64,000 nucleotides of DNA, from assembly GCA_043825735.1 (NCBI GenBank), contig JBDRRP010000050.1, positions 1 through 64,000 on the forward strand. The letters run 5' to 3'. This DNA comes from Pseudomonadota bacterium. GTDB taxonomy: Bacteria; Desulfobacterota; Desulfobacteria; Desulfobacterales; JBDRRP01. This document shows positions 154-5,592 of the stretch, piece by piece. The notes under the pieces are model-generated. The model did no database searches. It worked only from the letters and a program-made list of their open reading frames with translations, and was not told where the DNA came from. The first letter of the stretch is position 1. The number at the start of each line of letters is the position of its first letter. Made by a program: the position numbers and the translations under genes.

Positions 154-212
154 TGCTAACGCTTGAGCCTTGGGGCGCAGTTGTTTGCGTCCCCAACGGC
201 GATTTGTTAGGC
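154..212 (-). other. attC: integron attC site (59 bp)
   Basis: Minus strand GCCTAAC-AAATC-GCCGTTGG-GGACGCA-AACAAC-TGCGCC-CCAAGGC-TCAAGC-GTTAGCA: R''/L''/L'/R' boxes and two extrahelical bases; the upstream ORF stop lies in R''. Confidence 0.93.
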
Positions 213-560
213 GACTTGTCGTCTCCAACAGACGAATTTCGCATTACCTGTTGATCCCATGGCTTCAATTACAACTTGGTTATCAAATCCTGGTAGTTGT
301 TGTAGTCGTTCAAGTAATTGATCGCAGCCATGAGAAAATTGAGGGACAACACAACCCGATTTTCCATCTGCTGCTATCAAAAAGAAAAATACGTCTTCCT
401 GAGTTGGACCCTCATCAGTCGTTAAGATGCCGACTTCATGAAGTTCATCCCATCGAATGGTCTCCTCAGCACCATCAGGCCTTATACGCGTGACAGATAA
501 ATCATTGTAAATTACACGGTCAATTTGTTTTGGCTTTCGGAAAATATTTAAAATTTTCAT
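207..560 (-). CDS. integron cassette protein, hypothetical (117 aa, MKILNIFRKPK...)
   Basis: True start ATG 560 (the track's extension to 659 reads through intron DV/DVI); stop TAA inside GCCTAAC. Confidence 0.85.
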   Translation of the reverse strand: MKILNIFRKPKQIDRVIYNDLSVTRIRPDGAEETIRWDELHEVGILTTDEGPTQEDVFFFLIAADGKSGCVVPQFSHGCDQLLERLQQLPGFDNQVVIEAMGSTGNAKFVCWRRQVA

Positions 561-575
561 TTTAATATTTTCGCC

Positions 576-651
576 GTCGTGGTAGGAATGCCGGTTGCCC
601 GGCACCCCCCACACAGTCCCGGACGTGCGGTTTTCCCGCATCCGGTTCCTC
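576..651 (-). ncRNA. group II intron catalytic domain V and branch domain VI
   Basis: GAGGAACCGGATGCGGGAAAACCGCACGTCCGGGACTGTG (DV) followed by GGGGGGTGCCGGGCAACCGGCATTCCTACC and a terminal AC. Confidence 0.9.
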
Positions 652-675
652 GGTTGCACTCGTTTCCGCGCCGGC

Positions 676-2007
676 CTACGCCGTTACCAACTGATGCTTT
701 CGGCGCTTTTCCATCACCTTTGGCTTCGGGATTTTCACGTACTCTATGATCCGGTTGAACTGCTCCCAGTTGTAACTCTTCCGCTGACTTCTGCGATTGA
801 GCCACTTCTTCGCCAACTCGATCACTTTGCTGTAAAACGACCACACACTGTGGGAGTTTCCTCTCACATAAAAATAATTGTAGTGGCCGACCAACTTTCG
901 TTTCAAGTCCTTGAAGAACTGCCGCTTCGACAGGTGACGGGCCGCCTTCAACCAGGCCCGCATCCTTCCCAGTGCCTTTTGCTGCTTGGACGGCGCCGTG
1001 CGGCGCTTTACCCTGGGTACGCCCTTGCGGTCGTTGAACCAGCTAAACTCGAATCCTAAAAACGTGAACGTCTGTGCTTTTCTGCGACTGGGATGGAAGC
1101 GGCTGAAGCGTAGGATACGCGTCTTTTCCGGCGACAGCTCCAGGTTGTACCGACCAAGCCGTTTCGGCAACACCGAATAAAACCGGGCTGCATCGTCGCG
1201 GTACTGCAACGCACAAACCCAGTCATCTGCGTACCTGTACATCGCCGCCCGGCCTCTCAGCGCCGGTTTCACCGTCTGATGGAACCACTCATCCAGCACG
1301 ACGTGAAGGTACACGTTCGCCAGTATCGGTGACACGATGCCGCCCTGAGGCGTGCCGGTTACCGGGTGCTTTACGTAGCCTTCCGGCTCCAGTACCCCCG
1401 CCTTTAGCCACCTCCTGATCAATCCCAGAAAAGCGCGGTCGTTTATCCTGGCGCAAAGCATCTCCAGCAGCCGGTCGTGATCAATGGCATCGAAGAAGCC
1501 CTTGATATCGGCCTCCACCACATATCCGTACACACCGTACTGAAGATTAAAACCAAGATCCCCAACCGCATCCTTGGCCCCACGATCCCGCCGGTAGGCG
1601 TATGAGCAATCCAGAAATTCCGGCTCATAGATCGCCTCCAGGATCATGGACACCGCCTTCTGGACGATCTTGTCCTCCAGAGCGGGGATGCCCAAGGGGC
1701 GCTTCTTCCCGTTGTCCTTGGTGATGTAGCGGCGCCTGACCAGTTTTGCCCGGTATCTCTTTTGCCGAAGCCGCTCAGCCAAGCTGGCCAGATTCTCCTC
1801 CAGACCGGCGGCATACTCCTTTACCGTTACATCCGTGTCGGCGATGGCGGCGCTCTTGTTCAACAATCGCCAGGCCGCCTCCAACAATTCGGCATTCAGC
1901 ATACGGTACAGATCCCGGAACCGGTGCGTCTTGCTGCGCCGGGCCGTTCTCACTATTCCCCGCAGGGAGGTTGGCACACGTTGTCCCGATCCTGCTGTGT
2001 CCGGCAT
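676..2007 (-). CDS. ltrA: group II intron reverse transcriptase/maturase, no endonuclease domain (bacterial class E-like)
   Basis: RPLGIPALEDKIVQ, EADIKGFFD, GTPQGG, RYADD motifs; X domain GHYNYF...WLNRRSQR; 443 aa. Confidence 0.95.
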   Translation of the reverse strand: MPDTAGSGQRVPTSLRGIVRTARRSKTHRFRDLYRMLNAELLEAAWRLLNKSAAIADTDVTVKEYAAGLEENLASLAERLRQKRYRAKLVRRRYITKDNGKKRPLGIPALEDKIVQKAVSMILEAIYEPEFLDCSYAYRRDRGAKDAVGDLGFNLQYGVYGYVVEADIKGFFDAIDHDRLLEMLCARINDRAFLGLIRRWLKAGVLEPEGYVKHPVTGTPQGGIVSPILANVYLHVVLDEWFHQTVKPALRGRAAMYRYADDWVCALQYRDDAARFYSVLPKRLGRYNLELSPEKTRILRFSRFHPSRRKAQTFTFLGFEFSWFNDRKGVPRVKRRTAPSKQQKALGRMRAWLKAARHLSKRQFFKDLKRKLVGHYNYFYVRGNSHSVWSFYSKVIELAKKWLNRRSQRKSYNWEQFNRIIEYVKIPKPKVMEKRRKHQLVTA

Positions 2008-2578
2008 GTGTTTCCTTTGCGGGCTGCGTACTCCCGTCAGGTCCTTCCCCGTGTACGCGGCTTTCCCGCGCTCAGAGTACTATGCCTGATACGACTCCCA
2101 CCGGGCCAGGGTCCCTCCACTTCAGCTTTGGTTCCCCTTCCTTGCTTCTCCGGCTTTAGGCTCCCGTATAGTCCTGTGTCCGGGTTTCCCCTTCGTGCCT
2201 CATTATCGTCATGCCATTGCCAGAGTCCGGAGCCCGATGGGTCTCCCAAGTTCTTGTGTGCTTCTTTTCATACATGCCACGGCTTGATAACTCCGCCGGC
2301 CCTTCACATCCTCGCCTGTATCGGATGCTCTTGTTTTGCCTTCGGCGCACGTTACAACCCTCGGCGACCGGAACATGCTCTTTTCGGAGCGATACCAGCA
2401 CTTCAGGGAGCGCGGACTCCCCTACGGCCTGCATGATTCTCTGTGTACGCTTCGTGTGGGTCGTTCGACGATTTGTCTATCCTTCCCAATCACGCAACAC
2501 TCGATACGGGTGGGTGGCTGACCCTTACCCGACAGGGACTCGCACCCTGTAAGAAGCACCAAGCTTCGCTTGGCGCGC

Positions 2579-2633
2579 TAACGGTTGAGCTCATAGGATT
2601 GCGTAGCAATTCCTATGAAGCGATTTGTTAGCA
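2579..2633 (-). other. attC: integron attC site split by the intron (last 3 nt, GGC, at 573-575)
   Basis: TGCTAAC-AAATC-GCTTCATA-GGAATTGC-TAC-GCAATCC-TATGAGC-TCAACC-GTTA then intron. Confidence 0.92.
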
Positions 2634-3038
2634 GCGACCTTCAAAGAATATAGATCGGCTTAAAGCTATGAACAACCATATTAATAATATTGACGGTATG
2701 GTCATCGCGATGAGATCAATGAATCCTTCCGAAAAAGTACTCAACATTCTATCAAATGGCAATACTACCCAAAGAACAAATGAAATACTATACGATAGAA
2801 AAAGTGGATATATGAATATTTTAGATTTGGTTCGGAATGAAAGAAATCCAAACATTATTGTAAATACTGGAATTATCAAAAATGCGTTATGTAAGTTTGA
2901 GATAATATTTTCACCATTCAATGCTGTAATTGTATTTGAGACAGCCCATTGAAGTAATGATGAGAATATTGATAAAATTAGCAACGAACTACAAACTACT
3001 CTTCGCACATTTGCAGGCTGTTGTATTATGTATTTCAT
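2628..3038 (-). CDS. first integron cassette: AT-rich membrane protein, about 4 TM helices, hypothetical
   Basis: 136 aa and hydrophobic; bounded by G/TTAGCA (3051-3045) and the complementary TGCTAAC. Confidence 0.85.
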   Translation of the reverse strand: MKYIIQQPANVRRVVCSSLLILSIFSSLLQWAVSNTITALNGENIISNLHNAFLIIPVFTIMFGFLSFRTKSKIFIYPLFLSYSISFVLWVVLPFDRMLSTFSEGFIDLIAMTIPSILLIWLFIALSRSIFFEGRC

Positions 3039-3044
3039 TTATCC

Positions 3045-3075
3045 TGCTAACTTTATAATGATTCGCTATCGTGTT
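3045..3075 (-). other. attI: putative integron attI site
   Basis: ...GCGAATCATTATAAAGTTAGCA: core matches the cassette's R''; AAAGTTAG as in attI1; no attC hairpin upstream. Confidence 0.6.
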
Positions 3076-3321: not shown

Positions 3322-3576
3322 GTGCAAGGTGTTTTTGATGGCGCGTGCTTTAAAGCTGACATTCCAGTGCCTCCTATGCTAAGGACAAGCGCCTCGCCTC
3401 GTTTGCCGGTCACCTCGGCCTATGCAGACCCGGGCGACGATGCCGTCATCGCTTGCGCGGTCTCTGCGGACGCCGACTTCATCATCACCGGCGACCCCCA
3501 TCTGCTAAAGTTCAAGACCCACTATCGCATCGAAATCGTCTCTCCGGCCGAGTATCTCGAAAGATTTTACACCTGA
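3322..3576 (+). pseudogene. toxin-antitoxin remnant: AF2212/DUF104-like antitoxin N-terminus joined to the C-terminal half of a PIN toxin
   Basis: QGVFDGACFKADIPVP followed by DPGDDAVIACAVSADADFIITGDPHLL...IVSPAEYL; the PIN N-terminal motif is absent. Confidence 0.6.
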
Positions 3577-5527: not shown

Positions 5528-5592
5528 AGTTCATGTTTACCATGAAAATCGGGTATGTAAAGAAGGAATTTCATGGTCATCAACCGCTTCAG

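What the first reader, a model, noticed from the sequence alone, without database searches (positions are those of the whole stretch)
573..2633. Non-class-C group II intron inserted sense-strand into the attC core site (GTTA/GGC)
Seen: deleting 576-2578 restores CCGTTAGGC, the exact complement of the downstream cassette's GCCTAAC, which fixes the insertion point 3 nt after the G/TT crossover. The intron is co-oriented with the cassettes. Established: the described integron-targeting introns are IIC-attC, which lie antisense to the cassettes. This RT (TSLRGI...HRFRDLY N-terminus, WLNRRSQR X domain) and its full-length DV look class-E-like rather than class C. Inference: a second, independent attC-targeting intron lineage that can splice out of the array transcript and so be nearly silent.
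Basis: partly seen in the sequence, partly recalled or inferred. Interest (0 to 1): 0.85.

Follow-up and report, generated by a model that had tools for sequence, protein, structure and literature searches.

The report
Sense-strand attC-homing group II intron
A complete mobile self-splicing intron sits inside an integron recombination site, pointing the same way as the cassette genes, and it belongs to a widespread intron clade that finds this site by RNA-DNA base pairing, mirroring the known integron-invading introns.

Summary
Window 576-2578 (minus strand) is a 2003-nt group II intron with an intact endonuclease-less RT/maturase gene. It splits the R' core of an attC site as GTTA|GGC on the cassette-sense (top) strand.

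It is not a IIC-attC intron:
- Its ribozyme matches Rfam RF02005. Named references match other families: Kl.pn.I3 (IIC-attC) RF02001, RmInt1 (class D) RF01999, EcI5 (CL1) RF02012.
- Its RT is about 26% identical to each of those three.
- Its domain V has the 5-nt loop published as a class E/F hallmark.

The targeting belongs to a clade, not to this copy alone. In an RT tree of 108 relatives, all 26 copies whose 5' exon ends in GTT(A/G) fall in one 47-leaf clade, and 0 of 16 copies outside it do. Their EBS1 loop reads UAACG, complementary to CGTTA, and it changes to match in retargeted members.

Bulge placement, ORF direction and matching cassette ends put the introns on the attC top strand. 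Two arrays each hold two 100% identical copies in different attC sites.

Splicing, mobility and "silence" of this copy are untested, and its domain V carries AAC instead of AGC. No named class E reference could be obtained.

Partial precedent: Sonbol & Siam 2021. Earlier notes of this scan describe similar introns on other DNA.

The parts
576..2578 (-). Complete group II intron, 2003 nt. The 5' end reads GCGCG and the 3' end reads ...CCACGAC.
   Evidence: Relatives' RNA contigs stop matching at 576. It is the only full copy in the genome.
676..2007 (-). Intron-encoded RT/maturase, 443 aa, with YADD present and no endonuclease domain.
   Evidence: ORF; PF00078, E 9.7e-32; TIGR04416, 327 bits against a cut-off of 300; relatives 60-76% identical, mostly 440-458 aa.
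2281..2542 (-). Part of ribozyme domain I matched by Rfam RF02005 (group-II-D1D4-6).
   Evidence: 109.2 bits, full model length 1-225.
2350..2354 (-). EBS1, 5'-UAACG-3', in the terminal loop of a conserved domain I hairpin.
   Evidence: in 29 of 41 clade introns the exact complement of the last 5 exon bases lies in this one alignment bin. The next best bin holds 2.
2579..2583 (-). IBS1, 5'-CGTTA-3': the last UCS base plus GTTA of the attC R' core.
2377..2380 (-). Candidate EBS2 (GAGC) in an internal loop. It could pair with GCTC at 2587-2590 in the L' arm. Only 4 bp, so weak.
   Evidence: Across the clade the signal is 3.92 against 3.30 +/- 0.14, reached by 0 of 1000 permutations.
616..648 (-). 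Domain V, with two helices and a 5-nt GAAAA loop. The triad position reads AAC instead of AGC.
   Evidence: alignment to RF00029; AAC in 11 of 43 rows, with the partner base swapped.
579..612 (-). Domain VI, with a GCAA loop and a bulged A at 583, 7 nt before the 3' splice site.
   Evidence: alignment and the sequence read. The pairing was worked out by hand.
2579..2633 (-). attC-A up to the insertion point: R'' TGCTAAC, UCS, L stem with two single bulges on the AAC arm, then GTTA of R'.
   Evidence: bulges after 6 and 13 pairs on the 5' arm, none on the 3' arm.
573..575 (-). GGC, the rest of the split R' core and the first bases of the downstream cassette.
154..212 (-). attC-B of the downstream cassette: R'' GCCTAAC through R' GTTAGCA.
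   Evidence: fold z-score -2.47, bulges on the 5' arm.
207..563 (-). ORF of the downstream cassette, 118 aa, no family match. Its start codon lies 13 nt after the intron.
2628..3038 (-). ORF of the upstream cassette, 136 aa, hydrophobic, no family match. Its stop codon lies inside R'' of attC-A.
3045..3051 (-). GTTAGCA junction that opens the upstream cassette. It complements R'' of attC-A. No hairpin lies before it, so it marks the edge of the array.
   Evidence: fold z-score -0.23.

Best explanation
The element is a full-length group II intron without an endonuclease domain, of the RF02005 ribozyme type. It is class-E-like and is not class C, class D or CL1. It belongs to a widespread environmental clade whose EBS1 loop (5'-UAACG) pairs with 5'-CGTTA on the top strand of integron attC sites, so the intron inserts inside the R' core (GTTA^RRY).

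The known IIC-attC introns use the mirror-image position on the bottom strand. Because this clade inserts in the cassette-sense strand, 3 nt past the integrase crossover point, the intron becomes the 5' end of the downstream cassette.

Inferred, not shown:
- It is transcribed with the array and can be spliced out with the help of its own RT/maturase, which restores the attC sequence in the RNA.
- It spreads between attC sites by reverse splicing into exposed top-strand DNA, with cDNA synthesis primed by host replication, as for other endonuclease-less introns.
For: Identity: RF02005 at 109 bits, TIGR04416 at 327 bits, RF00029 at 33 bits.

Not class C, D or CL1:
- Kl.pn.I3 matches RF02001 and RmInt1 matches RF01999. 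EcI5 matches RF02012.
- These references are 25.6-26.3% identical to the window RT, against 41.6-72.8% within the clade.
- Solved RTs of IIA, IIC and CL1 introns all score only 109-137 bits.

Class E/F hallmark: a 5-nt domain V loop in the window intron and its relatives (criterion from PMC3753933, section 4).

Clade-level targeting:
- All 26 copies with a 5' exon ending in GTT(A/G) fall in one 47-leaf clade with SH-like support 0.92-0.93. That is 26 of 40 known exons inside the clade and 0 of 16 outside.
- EBS1 is complementary to the last 5 exon bases at one homologous loop in 29 of 41 introns. Retargeted members carry matching changes, for example CAACAA with TTGTTG and CGCATT with AATGCG.

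The targets are attC sites:
- 22 of 30 sites fold as AAC/GTT-closed hairpins, against 60 of 480 control GTT sites.
- The joined R' 7-mer has its exact complement downstream in 14 of 27 loci, against 3.0 expected by chance.
- The window's genome encodes two integron integrases.

Top strand:
- Single bulges lie on the AAC arm in 15 sites, on the other arm in 5, and equally in 2, of 22. Controls give 6, 16 and 38. The rule comes from PMC5027507.
- The sense ORF is the longer one in 20 of 26 loci.

Recent homing: two 100% identical copies lie in different attC sites of one array in L054 (1583 nt compared, sites sharing only CCGTTA) and in L048.
Against: - The window copy has AAC instead of the canonical AGC in domain V, with two non-standard pairs at the helix base. 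Its domain V/VI score is below Rfam's gathering score (33.1 against 40). Its 5' end is GCGCG, not GUGYG.
- It is the only full copy in the genome.
- No intron-less or spliced junction was seen in any of the four runs laid.
- 14 of 40 in-clade copies do not end in GTT(A/G). Of these, L034 and L044 are in attC sites at GT^T, and L031 and L052 look like point variants.
- 8 of 30 GTT-type sites did not fold convincingly, and 5 of 22 had their bulges on the other arm.
- There is no integrase on this contig. The array runs off the contig start and has no attC at its inner edge.
- No named class E reference could be placed in the tree.
- The contig's GC skew (+0.017 on the plus strand) does not support the idea that the top strand is the lagging-strand template.
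- EBS2 pairing in the window copy is only 4 bp.
Confidence: 0.8

Rival explanations
1. One-off event: an ordinary class-E-like intron landed in this attC site by ectopic retrotransposition, and its lineage has no attC specificity.
For: There is only one full copy in this genome. 14 of 40 in-clade copies lie at other sequences.
Against: 26 of 40 in-clade copies end in GTT(A/G), against 0 of 16 outside. EBS1 reads UAACG across the clade. Hairpins are enriched, 22 of 30 against 60 of 480. Identical copies occupy two attC sites of one array.
Confidence: 0.03
2. It is a divergent member of the known IIC-attC family.
For: It shares the target (attC) and the lack of an endonuclease domain. The insertion lies next to the GTT of a core-type box.
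Against: Kl.pn.I3 matches RF02001 and the window intron matches RF02005. The RTs are 25.6% identical and lie on opposite sides of the tree. The domain V of Kl.pn.I3 is short and has CGC. The strand and orientation are opposite to the published IIC-attC rule (PMC3001079, passages read).
Confidence: 0.01
3. The attC targeting is real but the class label is wrong. The clade would then be class F, a g-group or an unclassified lineage, or the same lineage as the published 'CL1' intron UHB.I2, rather than class E.
For: - No named class E sequence was available.
- IIE and IIF share the 5-nt domain V loop (PMC3753933).
- UHB.I2 also sits after an attC in the sense orientation and has odd ends, UUGCG..GU (PMC7923331). 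One subclade here starts with UCGCG.
- The node that separates RmInt1 from the 109-leaf group has support of only 0.62.
Against: - EcI5, a bona fide CL1 intron, is 25.8% identical and matches RF02012.
- The CL1 RT of T.el4h in the PDB scores no better than IIA or IIC RTs.
- The position next to class D matches the published D/E sister relation (PMC3552965, part 3).
- Class E fragments have been reported in a purple-sulfur-bacterium CALIN (PMC7923331), and purple sulfur bacteria occur in the window's subclade.
Confidence: 0.15
4. The window copy is an inactive relic. It arrived by homing but can no longer splice or move, so it blocks or truncates array transcripts rather than being silent.
For: Domain V has AAC instead of AGC, with A.A and A.G at its base. 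The 5' end is GCGCG. It is a single copy. No spliced or empty-site junction was seen.
Against: The RT ORF is intact and scores above the curated cut-off. AAC with a swapped partner recurs in 11 of 43 rows, including two rows (L041, L049) outside the window's subclade, which points to a tolerated and conserved variant. GCGCG is shared by L014, L016 and L049. EBS1-IBS1 pairing, domain VI and the bulged A are all intact.
Confidence: 0.2
5. The clade recognises the hairpin shape, as IIC introns do, rather than the CGTTA sequence. attC sites would then be only the commonest such hairpins.
For: Some in-clade copies at non-attC sequences also sit at the 3' foot of a hairpin: L095 has a perfect 16-bp stem, and L096 and L039 have shorter ones. 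EBS2 pairing is weak or absent in many copies. The two L054 sites share only CCGTTA.
Against: IBS1 lies inside the 3' arm of the hairpin and must be unpaired to bind EBS1. EBS1 changes to match the exon in nearly every retargeted member. Other in-clade copies (L040, L045, L057) have no hairpin at the site.
Confidence: 0.15

Closest known systems
Group IIC-attC introns (S.ma.I2, E.c.I7, Kl.pn.I1/I3; Leon, Quiroga, Centron, Roy; PMC3001079, passages read)
   Same: They are endonuclease-less group II introns specialised on integron attC sites. They insert beside the conserved GTT of a core-type box at the 3' foot of the folded strand, and several copies can occupy one array.
   Different: - They insert in the bottom strand, on the R'' side, antisense to the cassettes. 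The window intron is in the top strand, inside R', in the sense orientation.
- Kl.pn.I3 matches RF02001, has a short domain V with CGC, and its RT is 25.6% identical.
- IIC introns use only a short EBS1 and lack EBS2, per PMC3753933 and PMC3522654. Here EBS1 is 5-6 nt and there is a variable EBS2.
H.ha.F1 and H.ha.F2, class E intron fragments in the Halorhodospira halochloris CALIN (Sonbol & Siam 2021, PMC7923331; abstract, section 4 and section 10 part 1 read)
   Same: Their tree assigns them to class E. They lie inside a cassette array with attC or attC-like hairpins just upstream, on the same strand as the cassettes' top strand. They are probably the nearest printed relatives.
   Different: Both are 5'-truncated and their RT genes are broken. 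No targeting rule, EBS1 pairing or clade-level pattern was shown. Their sequences could not be compared here.
UHB.I2, a IIB1 intron with a CL1-type RT in a soda-lake cassette array (same paper)
   Same: It is full-length, lacks an endonuclease domain, sits immediately after an attC in the cassette-sense orientation, and has non-consensus ends.
   Different: The authors assign it to CL1. The window RT is 25.8% identical to the CL1 intron EcI5 and matches a different Rfam family. It is a single case, and the authors found no conserved exon sequence among its homologs.
Characterised class E/F ribozymes (Cl.be.I2, Pe.th.I2 and others; Nagy et al. 2013, PMC3753933; sections 4, 6 and 11 read)
   Same: They share the 5-nt domain V loop and a small ribozyme: about 670 nt here without the ORF, against a published range of 450-700 nt. 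In their assays EBS1-IBS1 is essential and EBS2-IBS2 is dispensable, which fits the relaxed EBS2 seen here.
   Different: Those introns have ordinary homing sites.

Membership tests
Group II intron | Conserved ribozyme domains I-VI | tested here: met
   RF02005 scores 109.2 bits against a gathering score of 49. Domains V/VI (RF00029) score 33.1 bits with E 3.6e-4, below the gathering score of 40. Domain VI has a bulged A, found by hand.
Group II intron | RT/maturase ORF in domain IV | tested here: met
   TIGR04416 equivalog at 327 bits against a cut-off of 300. PF00078.
Group II intron | Ends 5'-GUGYG ... AY-3' | tested here: inconclusive
   The ends are GCGCG ... AC. Position 2 deviates, and the deviation is shared by L014, L016 and L049.
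Group II intron | EBS1-IBS1 pairing with the 5' exon | tested here: met
   UAACG pairs with CGUUA. The pairing changes to match across the clade in 29 of 41 introns.
IIC-attC introns | RT inside class C and a IIC ribozyme | tested here: not met
   The RT is 25.6% identical to that of Kl.pn.I3 and lies outside its group. The Rfam families are RF02005 and RF02001. Domain V is full length rather than short with CGC.
IIC-attC introns | Inserted in the attC bottom strand, antisense to the cassettes | tested here: not met
   The intron is co-oriented with the cassette ORFs. The attC bulges lie on the AAC arm of the intron-sense strand.
IIC-attC introns | Target is an attC site | tested here: met
Class E (IIE) introns | RT/maturase without a D/En domain | tested here: met
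   The protein is 443 aa and the TIGR04416 match ends at residue 406. No endonuclease domain was found in Pfam.
Class E (IIE) introns | 5-nt loop in domain V (a feature shared with IIF) | tested here: met
   The loop is GAAAA. The class D and CL1-like comparison introns have 4-nt loops, and the IIC intron has a short domain V.
Class E (IIE) introns | RT clusters with named class E introns | not testable with these tools
   No named class E sequence could be reached. The position beside class D fits the published D/E sister relation only weakly, with support of 0.62.
CL1 / IIB1 introns (EcI5, T.el4h, UHB.I2) | CL1 RT clade and IIB1 ribozyme | tested here: not met
   EcI5 matches RF02012 and its RT is 25.8% identical. 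The T.el4h RT scores 109 bits, no better than RTs of other classes. UHB.I2 itself was not compared.
Integron attC site (the target) | R'' RYYYAAC and R' GTTRRRY closing an imperfect hairpin with a UCS | tested here: met
   TGCTAAC ... GTTA|GGC with a 5/6-nt spacer. Across the clade 22 of 30 sites pass, against 60 of 480 controls.
Integron attC site (the target) | Extrahelical bases on one arm, spaced by about 6 bp | tested here: met
   The window site has two single bulges 7 bp apart on the AAC arm. Many relatives have them exactly 6 bp apart, after 9 and 15 pairs. The rule comes from PMC5027507.
Integron attC site (the target) | The cassette's start (TTRRRY) complements its own R'' | tested here: met
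   In the window the match is 7 of 7. Across loci it holds in 14 of 27, against 3.0 expected by chance.
Integron attC site (the target) | Recombined by an integron integrase | not testable with these tools
   Two intI genes lie elsewhere in the genome, on C139 and C64. None lies on this contig.

The most novel reading that the evidence does not exclude
A large, phylogenetically widespread clade of class-E-like group II introns has evolved, independently of the IIC-attC introns, a fixed EBS1 (UAACG) that reads the only conserved sequence of integron arrays on the non-recombinogenic top strand.

Because these introns insert 3 nt past the crossover point and begin with G, they leave the integrase's cleavage triplet and much of the R box intact. 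They become the first part of the downstream cassette. They would therefore be carried along by IntI-mediated excision and capture, while splicing out of the array transcript. In effect this would be a retroelement that rides the cassette system without disabling it.
Probability: 0.45. Interest if true: 0.8.

Novelty: new variant of a known kind. Interest (0 to 1): 0.62.

Why it matters
Integron-targeting introns have been treated as a peculiarity of one class C sublineage that lies backwards in the array and blocks transcription. A 2015 review states that every lineage except class C uses ordinary homing sites (PMC4424553, passages read).

The results here show a second route to the same target. 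It uses a different ribozyme class, the opposite strand, and sequence pairing with the R' core. It is common in environmental genomes: each of two protein searches listed 120 relatives, all at 59% identity or more.

This bears on three questions:
- how cassette arrays tolerate parasites;
- whether introns travel with cassettes;
- how cassettes might arise, since RT-bearing introns at attC sites feature in models of cassette genesis.

It also offers a compact intron with a short, well-defined, naturally repeated target for mobility studies.

Tried and rejected
- **Plain MFE folding of the 5' exons.** Too noisy, because the weak AAC/GTT closure is often lost. It was replaced by constrained folds.
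- **Arm-duplex energy alone.** It separated sites from controls only modestly: mean -4.56 against -1.27.
- **Total unpaired bases per arm.** Confounded by the asymmetry of the spacer. It was replaced by counting only single bulges past the spacer.
- **Column-wise EBS2 search on the domain I alignment.** Not above permutation: 17 observed against a maximum of 17. A loop-restricted test then gave a signal.
- **The cassette-end match as a strand test.** It cannot tell the strands apart, because the same relation holds when read on the bottom strand. It is used only as evidence that the sites are attC sites and that the junction is exact.
- **Reference records.** KX711880, KM977631, KX711879 and KX710094 are not in the plasmid collection. 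pPAES01 holds only a 39-bit unrelated RT. PMC2525955 is not held. The supplements of PMC3552965 are unreadable. PMC2864571 says nothing about the D1D4 models.
- **Search with the L020 RT for a Halorhodospira halochloris protein.** None was named among the 120 proteins listed.
- **Sequencing runs.** Only one DNA run holds most of the stretch. No contig joins 575 to 2579, and the RNA contigs cover no exon of this locus. Nothing can therefore be said about an empty site, expression or splicing.
- **Integrase search in the flanks of the loci.** One partial hit (L022) lies in an uninformative position. The flanks of 2.5-3 kb are too short.
- **Replication strand.** The GC skew does not support a link to the lagging-strand template. 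That idea was dropped from the main reading.
Full report
**1. What is in the window.**
Read on the minus strand, the window runs as follows:
- a cassette ORF (2628-3038);
- an attC site that begins TGCTAAC (2633-2627) and reaches ...GCTCAACCGTTA (to 2579);
- 2003 nt of inserted DNA (2578-576), beginning GCGCGCC and ending CCTACCACGAC;
- GGCGAAAATATTAAAATG, which opens the next cassette ORF (563-207);
- a second attC, from GCCTAAC to GTTAGCA (212-154).

Removing 576-2578 gives GTTAGGC, the exact complement of the downstream GCCTAAC.

The window is the first 64 kb of contig C50, so the array runs off the contig end. No hairpin lies before the first junction, GTTAGCA at 3051-3045 (z -0.23), and no integrase lies on the contig. 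The genome has two integron integrases elsewhere and a second array with the same attC family on C57.

The two cassettes are 33% and 42% G+C. The intron is 57.8% and the genome 57.5%.

**2. The insert is a complete group II intron.**
- RF02005 scores 109.2 bits over its full model.
- Domains V/VI align to RF00029 end to end at 33.1 bits (E 3.6e-4, below the gathering score of 40), with the last model position at 576.
- The 443-aa ORF is a group II RT/maturase by the curated equivalog TIGR04416 (327 bits against 300). It has YADD and no endonuclease domain.
- RNA contigs of relatives in metatranscriptomes stop matching exactly at 576.
- It is the only full copy in the genome. C59 carries a 5'-truncated domain V/VI fragment of a relative.

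**3. Which class it belongs to.**
I fetched named reference introns from plasmid records:
- Kl.pn.I3, a IIC-attC intron in a blaIMP-4 integron (PMC9927271 and PMC5027574, passages read);
- RmInt1, class D (PMC3001079, passages read; recognised by its 419-aa IEP, a length I recall rather than looked up);
- EcI5, CL1/IIB1, from pO157 (PMC8643678, passages read).

They match RF02001, RF01999 and RF02012 respectively. The window intron and every relative tested match RF02005.

Over 394-419 trimmed columns the three reference RTs are 25.6-26.3% identical to the window RT. Clade members are 41.6-72.8% identical. Solved RTs of IIA, IIC and CL1 introns all score 109-137 bits, so none is close.

Domain V is full length with a 5-nt loop. 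Nagy et al. 2013 (PMC3753933, section 4) list this loop as an idiosyncrasy of IIE and IIF. In the tree the RF02005 group sits next to RmInt1 (support for the node separating them 0.62). This fits the D/E sister relation of Toro & Martinez-Abarca 2013 (PMC3552965, parts 1-3 read).

'Class-E-like, not class C' therefore stands. I could not place a named class E intron in the tree, so membership in class E is not proven.

**4. Whether attC targeting is a property of the lineage.**
I collected 79 loci from species genomes (the best 80 of 603 confirmed matches) and 80 from metagenomes (the best 80 of 239). Intron ends were located with iterated nucleotide profiles. This gave 115 end records, and ends were extrapolated by up to 8 nt where an alignment stopped short.

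For the tree, 116 of 168 RT-like ORFs were full length and 108 were unique. Of 56 leaves with a known 5' exon, 26 end in GTT, GTTA or GTTG. All 26 fall in one clade of 47 leaves with SH-like support of 0.92-0.93. Inside the clade that is 26 of 40; outside it, 0 of 16.

Of the 14 in-clade exceptions:
- L034 and L044 are in attC sites with the cut shifted to GT^T;
- L061 may be another such case: it too has an exact downstream match, and no attC was shown there;
- L031 and L052 differ from GTTA by one base;
- the others lie at unrelated sequences.

**5. How the site is read.**
In an alignment of 41 clade domain I sequences, the exact complement of the last five exon bases lies in one 5-column bin in 29 introns. 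The next best bin holds 2. That bin is the terminal loop of a conserved hairpin, at window 2354-2350 (UAACG).

Members at other sites carry matching changes:
- TTGTTG with CAACAA (L039);
- ACGTTG with CAACGT (L050);
- ATGTTA with TAACAT (L028);
- AATGCG with CGCATT (L057);
- GATTGTG with CACAATC (L096);
- AGTACG with CGTACT (L049).

This is EBS1-IBS1 pairing, and it independently validates the boundaries.

The base before GTT is C on the R' side and T on the mirror side, because R'' is followed by A. This difference gives EBS1 a way to tell the two strands apart; that step is my inference.

A second, internal loop pairs with exon positions -6 to -20 more than chance allows. The mean longest Watson-Crick run is 3.92 against 3.30 +/- 0.14 for permuted exons, a value reached in 0 of 1000 permutations. 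Twelve of 40 introns have runs of 5 bp or more. In the window copy the run is only 4 bp. This fits the dispensable EBS2 reported for IIE/IIF ribozymes (PMC3753933, section 11).

**6. Whether the targets are attC sites, and on which strand.**
I forced the AAC/GTT closure and folded the 30 GTT-type sites that have at least 60 nt of flank. Twenty-two gave a hairpin with at least 12 stacked pairs and dG of -7 or lower. Only 60 of 480 control GTT sites inside RT genes did so.

The joined R' 7-mer has its exact complement downstream in 14 of 27 loci, against 3.0 expected by chance. The matches lie at cassette-like distances and are followed by further attC-like hairpins. This relation cannot distinguish the two strands.

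The strand comes from two other tests:
- Nivina et al. 2016 (PMC5027507, passages read) state that the extrahelical bases lie on the same arm as 5'-AAC-3' in the top strand, spaced by a 6-bp stem. In the intron-sense strand the single bulges lie on the AAC arm in 15 of 22 folded sites, on the other arm in 5, and equally in 2 (33 against 12 bulged bases). They often lie exactly 6 bp apart. Controls give 6, 16 and 38.
- The longest downstream ORF is on the sense strand in 20 of 26 loci. In 15 of 26 loci a sense ORF of 60 aa or more starts within 120 nt of the site.

**7. Signs of activity in the clade, and doubts about this copy.**
L054 and L048 each carry two 100% identical copies (1583 and 1026 nt compared) in different attC sites of one array. 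The two L054 sites share only CCGTTA.

In the window copy the domain V triad position reads AAC instead of AGC. The same change occurs in 11 of 43 aligned rows: the window's subclade of nine, plus L041 and L049 elsewhere in the tree. In each case the opposite base switches from A to G, so G.A becomes A.G. That looks like a tolerated, conserved variant, but its catalytic competence is unknown.

Reads gave no help. No contig joins 575 to 2579, and no RNA contig covers the exons.

**8. Mechanism.**
Shown here:
- the anatomy of the intron;
- its strand and exact insertion position;
- EBS1-IBS1 pairing;
- clade-level specificity for attC;
- recent duplication within arrays.

Inferred:
- The intron is transcribed with the array, its RT is translated from an AAGGAA-spaced ATG, and maturase-assisted splicing restores the attC sequence in the RNA.
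- It reverse-splices into exposed top-strand DNA, and cDNA synthesis is primed by replication, as described for endonuclease-less introns (PMC4424553, passages read).
- Because the cut lies 3 nt past G|TT and the intron begins with G, the box still reads GTTAG. The intron belongs physically to the downstream cassette and could move with it.

I considered a link to the lagging-strand template, since 25 of 30 sedentary integrons have their bottom strands on the leading-strand template (PMC5371416, passages read). The contig's GC skew does not support that link here.

**9. What is already known.**
Four literature searches turned up one paper on non-IIC introns at attC sites: Sonbol & Siam 2021 (PMC7923331). 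alone found 28 papers holding 'group II intron', 'attC' and 'integron', of which 25 were listed. That paper reports:
- one full CL1/IIB1 intron after an attC, in the sense orientation;
- two truncated class E fragments in a CALIN, with attC-like hairpins upstream;
- a cited IIC intron in an attC top strand.

It speculates about a role for the hairpin. It shows no targeting rule and found no conserved exon sequence.

The 2015 review by Zimmerly & Semper assigns attC insertion to class C only (PMC4424553, passages read).

Earlier notes of this scan describe sense-strand attC-homing non-IIC introns on other DNA, mostly labelled CL1/IIB1. None resembles this RT by sequence.

My verdict is a new variant of a known kind: real, and well supported at the clade level. 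Its class label is still to be confirmed, and the activity of this particular copy is open.

Noticed in passing
L158-L167 (for example L160:1799, L161:2526): A sister clade about 41% identical in its RT. All nine of its copies with a 5' boundary called (L158-L163, L165-L167) are inserted right after a ribosome-binding site and ATGA, that is one base past a start codon. A IIB1 family at start and stop codons is in print (PMC12584367, Introduction), but that family carries a large 5' insertion, which these copies appear to lack.
   Followed up: partly
window 616-648 (minus); L014-L016, L020, L021, L023, L024, L041, L042, L049: The domain V 'catalytic triad' reads AAC instead of AGC in 11 of 43 clade rows. 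The opposite base switches from A to G in step, so G.A becomes A.G. I know of no described AAC triad; that statement rests on recall and was not searched.
   Followed up: partly
window 616-2010, in RNA runs X20 and X21: Metatranscriptome contigs 90-95% similar to the intron join 616 to 1997 and 668 to 2010. They therefore lack the whole RT gene, which points to ORF-less relatives of this intron being present as RNA in the community.
   Followed up: no
window 210 joined to 3037, in DNA run X1: One contig (depth 17, only 27 nt on the shorter side) joins the first junction region directly to the R'' of attC-B, skipping both cassettes' ORF regions and the intron. It could be an alternative array state, another locus or an assembly chimera.
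   Followed up: no
G000:C59:494-586 (minus): A 93-nt domain V/VI fragment, 79% identical to the intron's 3' end, with no intron sequence upstream. It is a 5'-truncated relic of a related intron.
   Followed up: partly
G000:C57:2830-2894 and 5530-5592 (plus): A second cassette array with the same attC family (CTAAC.. ...CTCAA[C/G]CGTTAG), near the start of another contig. It may continue the window's array.
   Followed up: no
L095:590-625 and L096:2471-2496: In-clade introns at non-attC sequences that still sit at the 3' foot of a hairpin. L095 has a perfect 16-bp stem. This hints that a hairpin context may matter beyond the sequence.
   Followed up: no
window 3322-3576 (plus): An 84-aa ORF that matches only the C-terminal end of a PIN domain (PF13470, profile positions 82-113 of 115). 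It looks like a truncated toxin gene just outside the array edge.
   Followed up: no
L098:126-127: Two intron copies lie head to tail, so the 5' exon of one copy is the 3' end of the other.
   Followed up: no
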